Shown here: piece by piece, positions 13,332 through 20,547 of the stretch | Layout: each line of letters opens with the position of its first letter | Position numbering within the stretch: position 1 is the stretch's first letter | NCBI GenBank assembly: GCA_902520385.1 | Contig: CABYOB010000003.1 | Location: 2,845-66,844 of the forward strand | Length of the DNA stretch: 64,000 nucleotides | Origin: an uncultured Bacteroidota bacterium | GTDB lineage: Bacteria; Bacteroidota; Bacteroidia; Flavobacteriales; TMED113 | Direction of reading: 5' to 3' | Notes under the pieces: generated by a model | The model's input: only the letters and a program-made list of their open reading frames with translations | What the model was told of the DNA's origin: nothing | Databases searched by the model: none | Program-made: the position numbers and the translations under genes

Positions 13332-13997
13332 ATGTTTAACTCTTCAATTGGGAGAAAATTAATAATGGCACTTTCGGGTGTGTTTTTAATTGTTTTTTTA
13401 ACACAACATCTAGTGATAAACCTCACCTCGTTAATTCCAGACAACGGAAAGGTTTTTAATTTCATTTCTCATTTTATGGGTAACAACCCTGTGGTTCAAT
13501 TTATTTTGCAGCCCATCCTAATTTTAGGAGTCATGATTCATTTTATAATGGGGATGTACCTTGAGGTTTTAAATCGACGATCTCGACAAACTTCGTATGT
13601 TGTGTATTCTGGCAAGAGTGGTGCTAGCTGGGCGTCAAGAAACATGATAATTTCAGGTCTAGTTATTTTATCGTTTTTGATTATGCATTTTTATGATTTT
13701 TGGGTGCCTGAAATGGTATATAAATATGTAGAGTTTAACCCATTGGATGAAAATAGATATTTTCATGAATTACAAGAAAAATTTTATAAAGGAGGAGTTG
13801 TTAAGCTTTTTTTGTATTGCGTTTCATTTGTTTTATTGGGGCTTCATTTGTCACATGGGTTTTCGTCATCACTACAATCAATGGGGATTACAAGGGGGCC
13901 AATTAAAATAGCAACTAAATTTTTTGCAATTATAGTTCCAGCTGGATTTATAATAATCGCCTCTTTTCACTATTTTATAACCACAATAAATCACTAA
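13332..13997 (+). CDS. sdhC: succinate dehydrogenase/fumarate reductase cytochrome b subunit (Bacteroidetes type)
   Basis: 221-aa polytopic membrane protein with His-containing helices, directly upstream of sdhA and sdhB. Confidence 0.8.
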   Translation: MFNSSIGRKLIMALSGVFLIVFLTQHLVINLTSLIPDNGKVFNFISHFMGNNPVVQFILQPILILGVMIHFIMGMYLEVLNRRSRQTSYVVYSGKSGASWASRNMIISGLVILSFLIMHFYDFWVPEMVYKYVEFNPLDENRYFHELQEKFYKGGVVKLFLYCVSFVLLGLHLSHGFSSSLQSMGITRGPIKIATKFFAIIVPAGFIIIASFHYFITTINH

Positions 13998-14224
13998 AAG
14001 AGCTAAGGTAGACAAAAAAAGACATAAGTGGACATTAGTGGACAAAATAATGCGTATCTAATCAAATTTCACTATATTTGGCTTAAATATAGACAAATAT
14101 TTTATAACCACAATAAATCACTAAAAGAGATAAGGTAGACAAAAAAAGACATAAGTGGACATTAGTGGACAAAATAATGCGTATCTAATCAAATTTCACT
14201 ATATTTGGCTTAAATATAGACAAA
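13971..14224. repeat. 127-bp tandem direct duplication (2 units, 1 mismatch)
   Basis: Unit 13971-14097 is repeated at 14098-14224 with one C>A difference. Each unit contains the last 27 nt of sdhC including its stop, four GACA boxes at 10-bp spacing, and a TATATTTG box. Confidence 0.9.
14200..14207 (+). promoter_or_regulatory. candidate -7 box (TATATTTG) for the HTH-sdhA ORF; a duplicate copy lies at about 14073-14080
   Basis: Perfect TAnnTTTG 19 nt upstream of ATG 14226. It lies inside the duplicated unit, downstream of the GACA box array. Confidence 0.45.
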
Positions 14225-14225
14225 A

Positions 14226-16478
14226 ATGGACAATGGGTTAAAAATGTTTAGTATAAATGAGTTAGCTGAGTTTTTAAATGTATCAAAAAAAACTATAAGG
14301 CGCCATATTGCTTCAGGTAAAATAGAATCTACAAAAGTGGGAGGTGTTCATAGAATATCGATGAATTCTATTAATTCGTTTCTTAACATTAATAAAGATA
14401 TAGCACAAGTTGATGCAAACATTAATAAAGAGTTGCTAAGAAAAGCTTTAACTAATGACGCTCATAAAAAAAATTTATTTCCGTTTGAAAGTAGAGTTCC
14501 TGAGGGAAAAATGGAAGATAAGTGGAATAACCATAAGAGAAAAATAAATTTAGTAAGCCCCGCAAACAAAAGGTTAATCGATGTAATAGTTGTTGGAACT
14601 GGCTTGGCGGGAGCCTCCGCCTCAGCAACATTGGCCGAGTTGGGGTATAATGTTAAATCTTTTTGTTTTCAAGATTCCTCCAGAAGAGCTCATTCAATTG
14701 CGGCACAAGGAGGTATAAACGCTGCTAAAAATTATCAAGGAGATGGCGATTCAGTATATAGACTTTTTTATGATACTGTTAAGGGTGGAGATTATAGATC
14801 TAGAGAGGCGAATGTTCATCGATTAGCAGAGGTTTCGACCAACATTATTGACCAGTGCGTTGCTCAAGGTGTTCCGTTTGCTAGAGATTATGGTGGGTTA
14901 TTGGATAATAGGTCATTTGGTGGCGTGTTAGTTTCGCGTACTTTTTATGCCAAAGGACAAACAGGTCAACAGTTATTGCTTGGTGCTTATTCAGCCATGA
15001 ACAGACAAGTTAATAGAGGTAAAATAAAAATGTATGCTCGCCATGAAATGTTAGAACTTGTGATAGTTGGTGGTAAGGCCAGGGGAATAATTGCTCGTAA
15101 TCTAATAACGGGTAAGTTGGAAAGGCATTCAGCTCATGCTGTTGTAATTGCTAGTGGGGGCTATGGTAATGTTTTTTTCTTATCTACAAATGCTATGGGT
15201 AGTAATGTTACAGCGGCATGGAAAATACACAAGAAAGGAGCGTATTTTGCTAATCCATGTTTTACTCAAATACACCCAACGTGTATTCCGGTTTCCGGAG
15301 AAAATCAATCTAAATTAACTTTAATGTCAGAATCATTGAGAAATGATGGGAGAATTTGGGTTCCAAAGAAAAAAGAAGATGTAAAGAAAATATTAGAAAA
15401 AAAACTAAAACCAACAGATATTGACGAGTCTGATAGAGACTATTATCTTGAAAGAAGGTATCCAGCATTTGGAAACCTTGTTCCTCGTGATGTTGCATCA
15501 AGAGCAGCTAAAGAAAGGTGTGATGCTGGCTACGGCGTAAATAAAACAGGAGAGGCTGTGTACTTAGATTTTCAGTCTGCTATTTTAAGATATGGTAAAG
15601 AACAGGCGTATTCTAAGGGTTTGGATGTAAAAAATAATAGCCTTGTAGAAAAATTAGGTAAAGAAATAATCAAACAAAAATATGGCAATTTATTTGAAAT
15701 GTATGAAAAAATAACGGATGAAAACCCATATGAAACACCCATGATGATATATCCAGCTGTTCATTACACTATGGGGGGAGTTTGGGTTGATTATAATTTA
15801 ATGACTACAGTTCCAGGTTGTTATGCAATCGGAGAAGCTAATTTTTCGGATCATGGAGCTAATAGATTAGGTGCCTCTGCTTTAATGCAAGGGTTGGCAG
15901 ATGGATACTTTGTTCTTCCTTATACAATTGGAGATTATTTGTCGTCTGATATAAGAACTGGAAAAATAAGTATTGATACAAAAGAGTTTGAAATAGCGGA
16001 AAAAGAAGCATTAAGAAAGTTGTCTTTTTTTATTGATAATAAGGGCTCAAAACCAGTTGACTATTTTCATAAAAAGTTAGGCAGAATAATGTGGGATAAG
16101 TGCGGGATGTCTAGAAACAAATTGGAGTTAAAAGATGCAATTTTAGAAATAAAAAAATTAAAAAAAGATTTTTATAAAAATGTTTTTGTGCCAGGTGAAT
16201 TGTACGATTATAACGAAGAGCTAGCAAAAGCAGGCAGGGTTGCGGACTTTATTGAATTAGGAGAGCTTTTTGCACGTGATGCTTTAGAAAGAGAGGAGTC
16301 TTGTGGTGGCCATTTTAGAGAAGAACATCAAACTAAAGAAGGGGAAGCTCTGCGTGATGATGAGAATTTTAATTTTGTTTCTGCGTGGGAATTTAAAGGC
16401 AGTGAGTCTAATCCTATGCTACATAAGGAAAAGTTAATATTCGACTCTGTTGAATTAAAATCAAGAAGTTATAAATAG
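14226..16478 (+). CDS. sdhA: succinate dehydrogenase/fumarate reductase flavoprotein subunit with an in-frame N-terminal excisionase-family HTH extension
   Basis: The SdhA core runs from [16 protein letters not shown]...[11 protein letters not shown] (FAD motif) to the C-terminus. Residues 7-54 ([47 protein letters not shown]) match the excisionase/MerR-like HTH pattern. No stop codon separates the two parts. An alternative start is ATG 14511. Confidence 0.85.
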
Positions 16479-16487
16479 CAAAAAGAT

Positions 16488-17234
16488 ATGAAACTTAATT
16501 TAAAAATATGGAGACAAAAAAACAAGGATTCTAAAGGAAAAGTTCATGATTATGAACTTGATGGTGTTGAGGAGGACATGTCTTTTTTAGAGATGTTAGA
16601 TTTTTTAAACAACAAGCTTTTAAATGAAGGGCAGGAGCCTGTTGCCTTTGATCATGATTGTAGAGAAGGGATATGTGGATCGTGTTCTTTATTTATTAAT
16701 GGTGTTGCACATGGTCCGGAAAGGGGCACCACGACATGCCAATTACATATGAGAAAGTTCAAAGATGGAGAAACGGTATATGTTGAGCCATTTAGAGCAA
16801 AGGCTTTTCCTGTAATTAAGGACTTAATTGTAGATAGGTCTTCATTTGACAGAATACAACAAGCTGGTGCGTATATTTCAGTAAACACATCTGGAAACAC
16901 ACAAGACGCTAACACAATACCAATACCCAAACATAATGCGGACGAGGCTTTTAATGCCGCTACTTGTATTGGTTGTGGGGCCTGTGTGGCCTCATGTAAA
17001 AATTCCTCAGCGATGCTTTTTACATCAGCTAAAGTTTCGCAATTTTCTTTGCTTCCTCAGGGACAGGTAGAAAGAGAAAGTAGGGTTTTAAATATGGTAA
17101 ATCAAATGGACCTAGAGGGTTTTGGTGCGTGTACCAATACAGGGGCATGTGAGGCTCAGTGCCCTAAGGGCATTTCTGTAAAAAATATTGCCAGAATGAA
17201 CAGAGAATACTTATTAGCAAGCGTTAAAAAATAA
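16488..17234 (+). CDS. sdhB: succinate dehydrogenase/fumarate reductase iron-sulfur subunit
   Basis: Cys clusters [20 protein letters not shown] and [12 protein letters not shown] are present. Confidence 0.9.
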
Positions 17235-20461: not shown

Positions 20462-20533
20462 GCTGACGTAGCTCAGGGGCAGAGCGCTTCCTTGGTAAGG
20501 AAGAGGTCGGGAGTTCAAATCTCCTCGTTAGCT
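20462..20533 (+). tRNA. tRNA-Thr (anticodon GGT)
   Basis: Hand-folded cloverleaf. Acceptor is GCTGACG/CGTTAGC and the D arm is GCTC-AGGGGCA-GAGC. The anticodon arm is CTTCC-TTGGTAA-GGAAG and the T arm is GGGAG-TTCAAAT-CTCCT. Confidence 0.9.
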
Positions 20534-20547
20534 CAAAAAACATATAA

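What the first reader, a model, noticed from the sequence alone, without database searches (positions are those of the whole stretch)
14226..14510. Excisionase-family HTH domain fused in frame to the SdhA flavoprotein (possible PutA-like enzyme-regulator)
The SdhA ORF has about 90 extra N-terminal residues. Residues 7-54 ([47 protein letters not shown]) match the excisionase/MerR-superfamily HTH pattern (L..E.AE.L.VS..TI.R.I..GK....KVG...RI....L..FL). A linker then runs without a stop into ...[16 protein letters not shown], where ordinary Bacteroidetes SdhA begins. No canonical start codon sits at the usual SdhA N-terminus; the next ATG is at 14511. I know of no described SdhA/FrdA with a DNA-binding domain. 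By analogy with PutA, a flavoenzyme carrying an N-terminal DNA-binding domain that represses its own operon according to FAD redox state, this could couple sdh transcription to succinate/quinone redox state. Alternatively it is an xis remnant captured by a decayed integrative element.
Basis: partly seen in the sequence, partly recalled or inferred. Interest (0 to 1): 0.8.

Follow-up and report, generated by a model that had tools for sequence, protein, structure and literature searches.

The report
DNA-binding domain fused to succinate dehydrogenase
A clade of marine Flavobacteriales makes the catalytic subunit of respiratory complex II (SdhA) with a conserved excisionase-type DNA-binding domain on its front end. 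Matching repeated DNA sites sit on the gene's own promoter and start codon, so the enzyme probably controls its own transcription.

Summary
ORF 14226-16478 encodes 750 aa: an HTH_17 winged helix (aa 7-54, 46.8 bits), a disordered linker (aa 55-84), then a complete SdhA.

It is not an artefact or a decaying remnant.
- At least 75 protein clusters and 50 further metagenome loci from marine Flavobacteriales carry the same in-frame fusion.
- Against the closest relative, dN/dS is 0.013 for the HTH, 0.30 for the linker and 0.037 for SdhA.
- Met96 (ATG 14511) is Met in only 12 of 75 clusters. Several lineages have no in-frame ATG after the HTH.

- Hexamers WRGACA (TGGACA/TAGACA/AAGACA), phased at 10 bp on one strand, flank a Bacteroidetes -7 box.
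- They overlap the start codon (aTGGACAa = Met-Asp-Asn/Lys).
- In the 64-kb window, paired hexamers occur only here: 7 found, 0.13 expected.

The same HTH subfamily with the same repeats heads C5 DNA methyltransferase genes in Bacteroidetes and Firmicutes. This points to a portable promoter-operator-HTH cassette.

Best reading: a self-regulating "trigger enzyme", like M.SsoII or PutA in principle. PutA-like redox sensing is untested.

The window also carries a private 127-bp tandem duplication of the promoter-operator unit.

The parts
13332..13997 (+). sdhC (cytochrome b membrane anchor), 221 aa. Its last 27 nt belong to copy 1 of the duplication.
   Evidence: Sdh_cyt, 28.2 bits. Syntenic with sdhC in L024 and L025.
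13971..14097 (+). Copy 1 of the 127-bp tandem duplication: the sdhC 3' end, the distal hexamer array, a -7 box and one orphan hexamer.
   Evidence: period 127, 2.0 copies, 99% identity. Absent from six relatives: L025, L031, L032, L033, L036, L038.
14098..14224 (+). Copy 2 of the 127-bp tandem duplication. This is the copy directly joined to the HTH-sdhA start.
   Evidence: In BLASTN, L031 bases 702-785 match the window twice.
14009..14044 (+). Distal hexamer array, copy 1: TAGACA-N4-AAGACA-N4-TGGACA-N4-TGGACA, with 10-bp phasing.
14073..14080 (+). Candidate Bacteroidetes -7 promoter box TATATTTG, copy 1.
   Evidence: Sequence. The consensus TAHHTTTG is from PMC6847099.
14090..14095 (+). Orphan TAGACA hexamer. 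It is the first half of the proximal pair in copy 1; its partner lies outside the duplicated unit.
   Evidence: site at -136.
14136..14171 (+). Distal hexamer array, copy 2: four WRGACA hexamers, about -76 to -41 relative to the predicted transcription start.
   Evidence: Distal arrays in the same 10-bp register occur in L001-L009 and L025.
14200..14207 (+). Candidate -7 box TATATTTG, copy 2. The predicted transcription start is about 14212.
   Evidence: A TA(H)(H)TTT(G/A) box lies 25-35 nt upstream of the ATG in all 11 fusion loci. Positions follow PMC6847099. This is inferred, not mapped.
14217..14232 (+). Proximal hexamer pair TAGACAaaaaTGGACA, about +6 to +21. The start codon 14226-14228 is embedded in it (aTGGACAa = Met-Asp-Asn).
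   Evidence: Sites at -9 and +1 occur in 9 of 11 fusion loci and in Bacteroidetes HTH-methyltransferase loci. Codons 1-6 show zero substitutions, synonymous ones included, against L025.
14226..16478 (+). HTH-SdhA fusion ORF, 750 aa plus stop.
14244..14387 (+). HTH_17 (Xis/BldC-like winged helix) domain, aa 7-54.
   Evidence: 46.8 bits; AF2; 4j2n, 6ama; dN/dS 0.013.
14388..14477 (+). Variable, predicted-disordered linker, aa 55-84.
   Evidence: pLDDT below 50 for aa 56-83. Linker length varies 12-36 aa across the family. dN/dS 0.30.
14478..16478 (+). Canonical SdhA flavoprotein part, aa 85-750. It includes the FAD-binding His in [11 protein letters not shown].
   Evidence: aligns to 9lay_A residues 22-657, E 2.9e-293.
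14511..14513 (+). In-frame ATG (Met96). It is a possible secondary start in this sub-clade only.
   Evidence: Met in 12 of 75 fusion clusters; TTA/CTG/CTT/CTA in L005-L009.
16488..17234 (+). sdhB (iron-sulfur subunit), 248 aa.
   Evidence: The syntenic genes in L024 and L025 carry Fer2_3/Fer4 domains.

Best explanation
The ORF is a real, translated fusion of an Xis/BldC-type winged-helix DNA-binding domain to a fully functional SdhA. It arose once in a clade of AT-rich marine Flavobacteriales.

Origin (inferred): a small self-regulating cassette landed between sdhC and sdhA and replaced the SdhA start. The cassette holds a Bacteroidetes -7 promoter box, direct WRGACA repeats spaced one helical turn apart, a start codon embedded in the last repeat, and the HTH. 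The same cassette heads C5 DNA methyltransferase genes.

Proposed mechanism:
- Several HTH-SdhA molecules bind head-to-tail to the phased repeats upstream of the -7 box (about -76 to -41) and just downstream of the predicted transcription start (about +6 to +21, covering the ATG).
- Binding there controls, most likely represses, transcription of sdhA-sdhB from this internal promoter.
- Flavoprotein synthesis is thereby fed back on the amount of flavoprotein free to reach the DNA.

Shown here: the fusion, its conservation and purifying selection, the fold, and the exclusive co-occurrence of this HTH subfamily with the repeats.

Inferred: DNA binding to these repeats, the promoter and its start site, the sign of regulation, and any dependence on assembly into membrane-bound complex II.
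For: Architecture.

Conservation:
- 75 of the best 120 clusters at 90% identity are HTH_17+FAD_binding_2+Succ_DH_flav_C, 727-765 aa.
- 7 GTDB species-representative loci and 50 of 80 metagenome loci have the fusion.

Selection, window versus L025:
- HTH: 1 of 48 aa differ, dN/dS 0.013.
- Linker: 13 of 30 aa differ, dN/dS 0.30.
- SdhA: dN/dS 0.037.
- In distant pairs, HTH dS is 1.3 or more, or too saturated to compute, and dN/dS is at most 0.25.
- The recognition helix and wing (S.KTIRRHI.SGK..S.K.GG.HRI) are nearly invariant.

No alternative start: the Met96 equivalent is L30/I27/M12/V6 across clusters. There is no in-frame ATG after the HTH in L005-L009.

Fold: pLDDT 90. Top PDB matches are Pukovnik Xis (TM 0.79, rmsd 1.0 A), BldC-DNA, RacA, pSK1 Par and RdfS; sequence E 4.5e-9 to 4j2n. 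These proteins bind direct repeats, in several cases as head-to-tail multimers (PMC5859096; PMC7498355 abstract).

Operator:
- WRGACA-N4-WRGACA gives 7 hits in 64 kb, all at 14009-14232 on the + strand, against 0.13 expected.
- Hexamer density is 18.8 per kb near the start versus 0.89 per kb elsewhere in 11 loci.
- Positions are fixed at -9 and +1, with or without -19, plus a distal array in 10-bp register.
- Codons 1-6 carry no synonymous change.

Independent support: the same HTH subfamily (48-63% identity) fused to C5 methyltransferases carries the same repeats. They lie on the ATG and -7 box in Bacteroidetes and beside or overlapping the -35/-10 elements in Firmicutes.

Other points:
- No terminator-like site and no Rfam RNA lies between sdhC and the ATG.
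- Autoregulation by an N-terminal DNA-binding region of an enzyme is established for M.SsoII and M.Ecl18kI (PMC3978073, PMC2760811).
Against: - There is no experimental evidence for DNA binding, the transcription start or the protein N-terminus.
- The operator assignment is purely comparative.
- TGGACA/TAGACA resemble a sigma-70 -35 hexamer, so in Firmicutes part of the signal could be promoter sequence.
- L009 lacks the proximal pair, and L002 and L008 have degenerate arrays.
- Two lineages lost the whole cassette and evidently do well: the 678-aa group, seen on 34 contigs or more, and P0044. The function is therefore dispensable.
- Packing several 83-kDa subunits on sites 10 bp apart needs the flexible linker, which is only about 12 aa in the shortest members.
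- The full-length AF2 model is poor (pLDDT 61) and says nothing about contacts between the domains.
- In the window's own sub-clade Met96 is conserved, so an HTH-less isoform cannot be excluded.
Confidence: 0.6

Rival explanations
1. PutA-like redox or substrate switch. DNA binding by HTH-SdhA depends on the FAD redox state or on succinate/quinone status. The protein would shuttle between operator DNA and the membrane, coupling sdh transcription to respiratory state.
For: The layout matches: an N-terminal DNA-binding domain on a membrane-associated flavoenzyme, with candidate operators on its own promoter. The long flexible linker would allow the two states.
Against: Nothing here speaks to redox dependence. 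The same HTH cassette works on C5 methyltransferases, which have no redox chemistry. The cassette by itself therefore looks like a simple concentration-dependent autoregulator. The fold is a winged HTH, not PutA's ribbon-helix-helix. No conserved HTH-SdhA interface could be assessed because the full-length model is poor.
Confidence: 0.15
2. Architectural or tethering role rather than transcription control. The HTH would anchor the sdh locus or nucleoid DNA to membrane-bound complex II, or build a Xis/RacA-like nucleoprotein filament, or mainly regulate other genes elsewhere in the genome.
For: The closest structural relatives include non-transcriptional DNA organisers: Xis, RacA, pSK1 Par and RdfS. 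The multi-site phased arrays resemble filament-forming sites.
Against: In 64 kb the paired motif occurs only at the gene's own promoter and start. The sites bracket a -7 box and cover the predicted start site and the ATG. In marine methyltransferase loci the first hexamer overlaps the -7 box itself. This layout is typical of promoter occlusion.
Confidence: 0.12
3. A functionless relic. A captured xis-like ORF merely reads into sdhA, and the enzyme is made from ATG 14511 (or the fusion is tolerated), so the HTH does nothing.
For: Met96 is present in the window's sub-clade. Two lineages deleted the cassette without losing sdhA. The region has recently been rearranged by the 127-bp duplication.
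Against: HTH dN/dS is 0.013 against 0.30 for the linker. The frame is kept across linker lengths of 12-36 aa in 75 clusters. The Met96 equivalent is L/I/V in 63 of 75 clusters, with non-start codons in the five loci of that kind that were read as DNA. The operators are co-conserved. No integrase or other mobile-element gene lies nearby, and the flanks are syntenic with the HTH-less L024.
Confidence: 0.04
4. The HTH fold is kept for a role that does not involve DNA, for example as a docking or assembly module for SdhA maturation or complex II assembly. The WRGACA repeats would then be promoter elements read by another factor.
For: Bacteroidetes SdhA has a poorly understood N-terminal extension. 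No binding data exist.
Against: The invariant residues are the basic and polar positions of the recognition helix and wing (K, T, R, R, H, R). The HTH and the repeats travel together onto an unrelated enzyme in two phyla. That is hard to explain unless the HTH reads the repeats.
Confidence: 0.05

Closest known systems
C5 DNA methyltransferases with an N-terminal regulatory DNA-binding region (M.SsoII, M.Ecl18kI; PMC3978073, PMC2760811), and the HTH_17-C5-methyltransferase genes found here (L010-L016, L018-L020, L067-L110)
   Same: An N-terminal HTH joined by a flexible linker to an enzyme, with the operator on the enzyme gene's own promoter. The HTH_17-methyltransferase genes found here are true homologues of the SdhA HTH (48-63% identity). 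They carry the same WRGACA repeats and the same ATG-in-repeat arrangement.
   Different: The fused enzyme is a respiratory and TCA-cycle flavoprotein that works in a membrane complex, not a DNA enzyme of a restriction-modification system. I did not test whether the N-terminal region of M.SsoII belongs to HTH_17. Its operator is described as a single regulatory site, not a phased direct-repeat array. No restriction enzyme gene is involved here.
PutA (proline utilisation A), a flavoenzyme that represses the put genes
   Same: A flavoenzyme with an N-terminal DNA-binding domain, proposed to regulate its own locus. It belongs to the 'trigger enzyme' class (my own knowledge; the term is discussed in PMC5397151).
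   Different: PutA uses a ribbon-helix-helix dimer; this protein uses a monomeric Xis/BldC-like winged HTH. PutA's redox-driven switch to the membrane is demonstrated; nothing comparable is shown here. SdhA needs SdhB and SdhC to act, whereas PutA is a peripheral single polypeptide.
BldC, Xis, Apl and RdfS: small MerR-like winged-helix proteins that bind direct repeats
   Same: The same fold (TM 0.72-0.79) and the same Pfam family, HTH_17. The candidate sites are direct repeats one helical turn apart, as for BldC (PMC5859096) and for Apl and other recombination directionality factors (PMC7498355).
   Different: Those are free-standing proteins of 55-80 aa, many linked to integrases. This one is the N-terminal domain of an 83-kDa enzyme, with no integrase or att context.
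BirA and NadR: enzyme-repressors with an N-terminal winged HTH
   Same: An N-terminal HTH on a metabolic enzyme that regulates the pathway's own genes. BirA appears among the weaker fold matches (ranks 18, 34 and 50).
   Different: BirA binds a palindromic operator as a dimer, triggered by its reaction intermediate. Here the sites are direct repeats and no ligand control is known.

Membership tests
HTH_17 / excisionase-MerR-like winged HTH (PF12728) | Profile score above the Pfam gathering threshold | tested here: met
   46.8 bits (isolated N-terminus) and 43.3 bits (full protein) against a cut-off of 27, aa 7-54.
HTH_17 / excisionase-MerR-like winged HTH (PF12728) | Fold: helix-turn-helix, beta-hairpin wing, C-terminal helix, with no coiled-coil dimerisation helix | tested here: met
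   AF2 pLDDT 90 with elements H8-15, H19-28, E34-36, E39-43, H44-51. Foldseek: 4j2n TM 0.79, rmsd 1.0 A; 6ama TM 0.73.
Excisionase / recombination directionality factor (functional class) | Encoded within an integrative element, next to a tyrosine or serine recombinase and att sites | tested here: not met
   The flanks (AIRS, peptidase M24, sdhC, sdhB, Big_5, RNase R) are syntenic with the HTH-less L024. There is no integrase. A scan of viral contigs found no relatives.
SdhA/FrdA flavoprotein of complex II | FAD_binding_2 and Succ_DH_flav_C domains, with conserved catalytic and FAD-linking motifs | tested here: met
   187.5 and 118.3 bits. [14 protein letters not shown] and the other core columns are invariant across 48 sequences. 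E 2.9e-293 to 9lay_A over aa 86-750.
SdhA/FrdA flavoprotein of complex II | Operon context with the membrane anchor and the iron-sulfur subunit | tested here: met
   sdhC 13332-13997, sdhA 14226-16478, sdhB 16488-17234.
Autoregulatory enzyme with an N-terminal HTH (M.SsoII-type logic) | DNA-binding domain plus flexible linker plus catalytic domain in one polypeptide | tested here: met
   linker pLDDT below 50; variable linker length.
Autoregulatory enzyme with an N-terminal HTH (M.SsoII-type logic) | Cognate operator on the gene's own promoter | tested here: inconclusive
   The comparative signal is strong: 7 hits against 0.13 expected; a 21-fold local enrichment; the same repeats with the same HTH on methyltransferase genes. 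Neither binding nor the promoter has been demonstrated.
Autoregulatory enzyme with an N-terminal HTH (M.SsoII-type logic) | The protein changes transcription of its own gene | not testable with these tools
   This needs a reporter or in vitro transcription assay.
PutA-like redox-switched flavoenzyme-repressor | Ribbon-helix-helix DNA-binding domain | tested here: not met
   The fold is a winged HTH of the Xis/BldC type.
PutA-like redox-switched flavoenzyme-repressor | FAD reduction shifts the protein from DNA to the membrane | not testable with these tools
   No computation here addresses it.
BldC/Xis-type direct-repeat binders | Target sites are direct repeats about one helical turn apart, in variable number | tested here: met
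   Two to four hexamers per array, all on one strand, with exact 10-bp spacing in 11 fusion loci.

The most novel reading that the evidence does not exclude
HTH-SdhA is a true sensor-regulator. Whether it sits on its operator depends on the flavin redox state, on succinate, or on assembly into membrane-bound complex II. A respiratory complex subunit would then report respiratory or TCA-cycle status directly to its own promoter in an abundant group of ocean bacteria. This would be a PutA-like switch built from a portable promoter-operator-HTH cassette borrowed from restriction-modification methyltransferase genes.
Probability: 0.15. Interest if true: 0.85.

Novelty: new variant of a known kind. 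Interest (0 to 1): 0.7.

Why it matters
- Complex II is among the most conserved and best-studied enzymes. I found no report of a catalytic subunit carrying a sequence-specific DNA-binding domain, either in the searched literature or among solved structures.
- The fusion is not a one-off. It is fixed, with strong purifying selection, in a broad clade of marine Flavobacteriales sampled by TARA Oceans and other ocean surveys.
- It gives a directly testable case of a central-metabolism "trigger enzyme". A defined 6-bp repeat operator and a 54-residue domain can go straight into EMSA and reporter assays.
- It suggests how regulation can be rewired: a roughly 250-bp self-contained cassette (promoter, operator, start codon, HTH) appears to have moved from methyltransferase genes to a housekeeping gene.
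- The two secondary losses and the private duplication of the promoter-operator unit in this genome offer natural variants for comparison.
- Public records that carry a name call these proteins plain succinate dehydrogenase flavoprotein subunit, so the feature is invisible in annotation.

Tried and rejected
- Protein word-index searches with short queries returned only short contig-end fragments. They could not be used to list architectures. The full-length query and the DNA-pattern scans did that job.
- The 50%-identity representative library merges the fusions with ordinary SdhA, so it shows none of full length. It did show that the nearest single-domain hits are fragments of SdhA or methyltransferase fusions, not free excisionases.
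- The exact 750-aa protein is not in the contig index.
- The viral contig scan found no relatives, so there is no evidence for a phage vector.
- Two very short HTH ORFs on long contigs (P0155, P0207; L027-L029) looked like split genes. They are homopolymer frameshifts (A6 versus A7) in pilon-polished long-read assemblies, where every neighbouring gene is also fragmented. I rejected them as evidence of pseudogenisation.
- The integrase-arm idea for the 760-aa SdhA group got no Pfam support.
- The sigma-70 promoter scan is not informative for Bacteroidetes. No terminator-like site and no Rfam family was found in the intergenic region.
- No methyltransferase gene and no second HTH copy exists in the 64-kb window.
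- The midpoint-rooted NJ tree suggested that the HTH clades are paraphyletic. Bootstrap analysis of splits shows all canonical 667-aa sequences on one side (100%), so a single gain is sufficient.
Full report
OBSERVATION

The + strand ORF 14226-16478 is uninterrupted and encodes 750 aa.

Pfam places three domains:
- HTH_17 at aa 7-54: 46.8 bits on the isolated N-terminus, cut-off 27.
- FAD_binding_2 at aa 119-553.
- Succ_DH_flav_C at aa 615-749.

The gene sits between sdhC (13332-13997) and sdhB (16488-17234). Canonical flavobacterial SdhA proteins are 666-667 aa and begin MAKLDSKIPxGP. That aligns with F85-P-F-E-S-R-V-P of the window protein, so about 83-84 residues are extra. The closest solved structure (9lay) aligns only to aa 86-750. 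No ATG lies at the canonical start. The next in-frame ATG after the HTH is 14511 (Met96).

IS IT REAL?

A full-length search found that 75 of the best 120 protein clusters (90% identity) have the same HTH_17 + FAD_binding_2 + Succ_DH_flav_C architecture. They are 727-765 aa long and 74-93% identical to the window protein. All come from marine metagenomes, Flavobacteriales MAGs (for example TMED191) or a single-cell genome.

Pattern scans added 7 species-representative genome loci (L003-L009) and 50 of 80 metagenome loci. The linker between the HTH and SdhA varies from 12 to 36 aa and in sequence, yet the frame is always kept.

Comparison with the closest relative, L025:

| Region | aa differences | dN/dS |
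|---|---|---|
| HTH (aa 7-54) | 1 of 48 | 0.013 |
| Linker (aa 55-84) | 13 of 30 | 0.30 |
| SdhA (aa 85-750) | 35 of 666 | 0.037 |

Between distant lineages, HTH dS is 1.3 or more, or too saturated to compute, while HTH dN stays at 0.05-0.39. The recognition helix and wing (S.KTIRRHI.SGK..S.K.GG.HRI) are nearly invariant.

The residue equivalent to Met96 is L in 30, I in 27, M in 12 and V in 6 of the 75 clusters. In L005-L009 its codon is TTA, CTG, CTT or CTA, and there is no in-frame ATG between the HTH and the Rossmann fold. In much of the family, full-length SdhA can therefore only be made as the fusion. A sequencing error, a hidden stop and a decaying remnant are all excluded.

FOLD

AlphaFold2 on the HTH alone gives pLDDT 90 with a helix-turn-helix, a beta-hairpin wing and a third helix. 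In the full-length model the HTH is confident (79-87), aa 56-83 are below 50, and the rest is mediocre because the alignment is shallow.

Foldseek against the PDB ranks:
- mycobacteriophage Pukovnik Xis first (4j2n; TM 0.79, rmsd 1.0 A);
- then BldC-DNA complexes, RacA, pSK1 Par and RdfS.

A profile search gives 4j2n at E 4.5e-9. These are MerR-like winged-helix proteins without a dimerisation helix. BldC oligomerises head-to-tail on direct repeats of variable number (PMC5859096). Sites for recombination directionality factors are direct repeats one helical turn apart (PMC7498355).

THE DNA SIDE (NEW)

The sdhC-sdhA spacer holds hexamers WRGACA (TGGACA, TAGACA, AAGACA), all on the + strand, at exact 10-bp spacing.
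- The paired pattern WRGACA-N4-WRGACA occurs 7 times in the 64-kb window, all between 14009 and 14232. Shuffles give 0.13.
- Across 11 fusion loci, hexamer density is 18.8 per kb within -260..+10 of the ATG and 0.89 per kb elsewhere.

The layout is conserved:
- A proximal pair or triplet at -19, -9 and +1. The start codon is embedded in the last hexamer (aTGGACAa), which explains the conserved Met-Asp-Lys/Asn N-terminus.
- A TA(H)(H)TTT(G/A) box 25-35 nt upstream of the ATG. It matches the Bacteroidetes -7 element TAHHTTTG (PMC6847099).
- A distal array of 2-4 hexamers at about -60 to -100, in the same 10-bp register.

With that paper's numbering, the window's box at 14200-14207 predicts a transcription start near 14212. 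The proximal pair then lies at about +6 to +21 and the distal array at about -76 to -41.

Codons 1-6 show no substitution at all against L025, while dS elsewhere is about 0.7. This fits a constraint at the DNA level. No terminator-like site and no Rfam family lies in the spacer.

INDEPENDENT SUPPORT AND ORIGIN

Apart from the SdhA fusions, the closest relatives of this HTH (48-63% identity, as close as SdhA-HTH clades are to each other) are N-terminal domains of C5 DNA methyltransferases (HTH_17 + DNA_methylase). They occur in Flavobacterium, Sediminibacterium, marine Bacteroidetes and Clostridia. No third architecture could be recognised among the 80 metagenome loci.

These methyltransferase genes carry the same repeats:
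- In Bacteroidetes: a -7 box, then WRGACA-N4-aTGGACA on the ATG. In marine examples the first hexamer overlaps the -7 box (TATATT-TGGACA).
- In Firmicutes: two TGGACA/TAGACA hexamers 20 bp apart, one directly after the TTGACA -35 element and one overlapping or directly after the -10 region.

The HTH and the repeats travel together onto two unrelated enzymes and across two phyla. That is the best available evidence that the HTH reads the repeats. Autoregulation through an N-terminal DNA-binding region is established for the C5 methyltransferases M.SsoII and M.Ecl18kI (PMC3978073, PMC2760811).

I infer that a compact cassette (promoter, operator, ATG, HTH) was captured between sdhC and sdhA. No integrase, methyltransferase or second HTH lies nearby. 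The viral scan found nothing. The flanks are syntenic with an HTH-less relative. The 'xis remnant of an integrative element' idea is therefore not supported.

EVOLUTIONARY PATTERN

On the SdhA core, all canonical 667-aa sequences fall on one side of a split with 100% bootstrap support. One gain of the fusion therefore suffices.

Two HTH-less groups are nested inside HTH-bearing clades:
- The 678-aa group, with the 740-aa and window clades (99%).
- P0044, with the 733-aa group (97%).

In their loci (L024, L030) the sdhC stop lies 3 or 21 nt before the sdhA ATG, and there are no hexamers. The proteins still carry linker-like remnants (RFPRDSKVPEGPM, NFPKPNLIPEGE). These are two secondary deletions, so the module is dispensable in some lineages.

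PRIVATE DUPLICATION

In the window, a 127-bp unit is present twice in tandem at 99% identity: 13971-14097 and 14098-14224. The unit holds the last 27 nt of sdhC, the distal array, the -7 box and the first proximal hexamer. Six relatives, including the 88%-identical L031/L025, have one copy. This genome therefore has two tandem promoter-operator units: 11 hexamers and two -7 boxes. I could not check read support.

MECHANISM AND CONFIDENCE

| Claim | Confidence |
|---|---|
| Real, translated, selected fusion | about 0.95 |
| The HTH binds the WRGACA repeats | about 0.7 |
| The result is autoregulation, most likely repression, of an internal sdhA-sdhB promoter | about 0.6 |

Repression is the likelier sign because the sites cover the predicted start site and the ATG, and in the methyltransferase loci the -7 box itself.

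A plausible refinement is that only flavoprotein not yet locked into membrane complex II can reach the operator. That would give feedback on unassembled SdhA. This refinement is inference only. A PutA-like redox switch is possible (about 0.15) but nothing here tests it. The cassette also works on enzymes with no redox chemistry.

COMPARISON AND NOVELTY

In logic this is a trigger enzyme, like M.SsoII, PutA or BirA. In fold and site type it is like BldC or Xis. It is a member of HTH_17 and of the SdhA family. It is not an excisionase in context, and it is not PutA-like in fold.

I found no publication on an SdhA or FrdA with a DNA-binding domain. Public records that carry a name call these proteins plain SdhA. 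I class it as a new variant of a known kind, with interest 0.7.

Noticed in passing
window 13971-14224: A 99%-identical 127-bp tandem duplication of the sdhC 3' end plus the promoter-operator unit. It is absent from six close relatives, so it is recent and private to this genome, or an assembly artefact that I could not check. It doubles the distal hexamer array and the -7 box.
   Followed up: partly
L026:335-700 (ERZ4874413); proteins P0097, P0111, P0113, P0117: Another flavobacterial SdhA group (760 aa) has an unrelated in-frame N-terminal extension of about 93 aa (MKKVKIRYRENSNGTSSIRLNYF...). It lies upstream of a retained canonical Met and is about 70% conserved between clusters. It is preceded by two copies of a GTGTACCTTG-like repeat. 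Pfam finds nothing. It may be a second, independent capture at the sdhA 5' end, or just an ORF extension.
   Followed up: partly
L010-L016, L018-L020, L067-L110 (for example L074:2336-2500): A family of C5 DNA methyltransferases in Bacteroidetes and Clostridia has an N-terminal HTH_17 domain. TGGACA/TAGACA direct repeats lie on their promoters and start codons. This looks like an undescribed autoregulatory methyltransferase class, analogous to M.SsoII.
   Followed up: partly
L024:2490-2560 and L030:1475-1545: Two lineages nested within the fusion clade have deleted the whole cassette cleanly. sdhC and sdhA are 3 or 21 nt apart, yet the proteins keep linker-derived residues at a new N-terminus.
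   Followed up: yes
P0123 (479 aa, 8 HTH_17 stretches), P0124 (2605 aa, 16 stretches) and many others: The representative-library search found many proteins built from 3-16 tandem HTH_17 domains. That architecture would suit reading arrays of direct repeats.
   Followed up: no
L027, L028, L029: Contigs L027 and L029 (pilon-polished) show homopolymer frameshifts that break the HTH-sdhA gene and every neighbouring gene into fragments; the Logan contig L028 carries the same A-run frameshift in the HTH. These are assembly errors, not pseudogenes.
   Followed up: yes
window 20462-20534: A single tRNA-Thr (GGT), the only tRNA in the window. It is unrelated to the finding.
   Followed up: no
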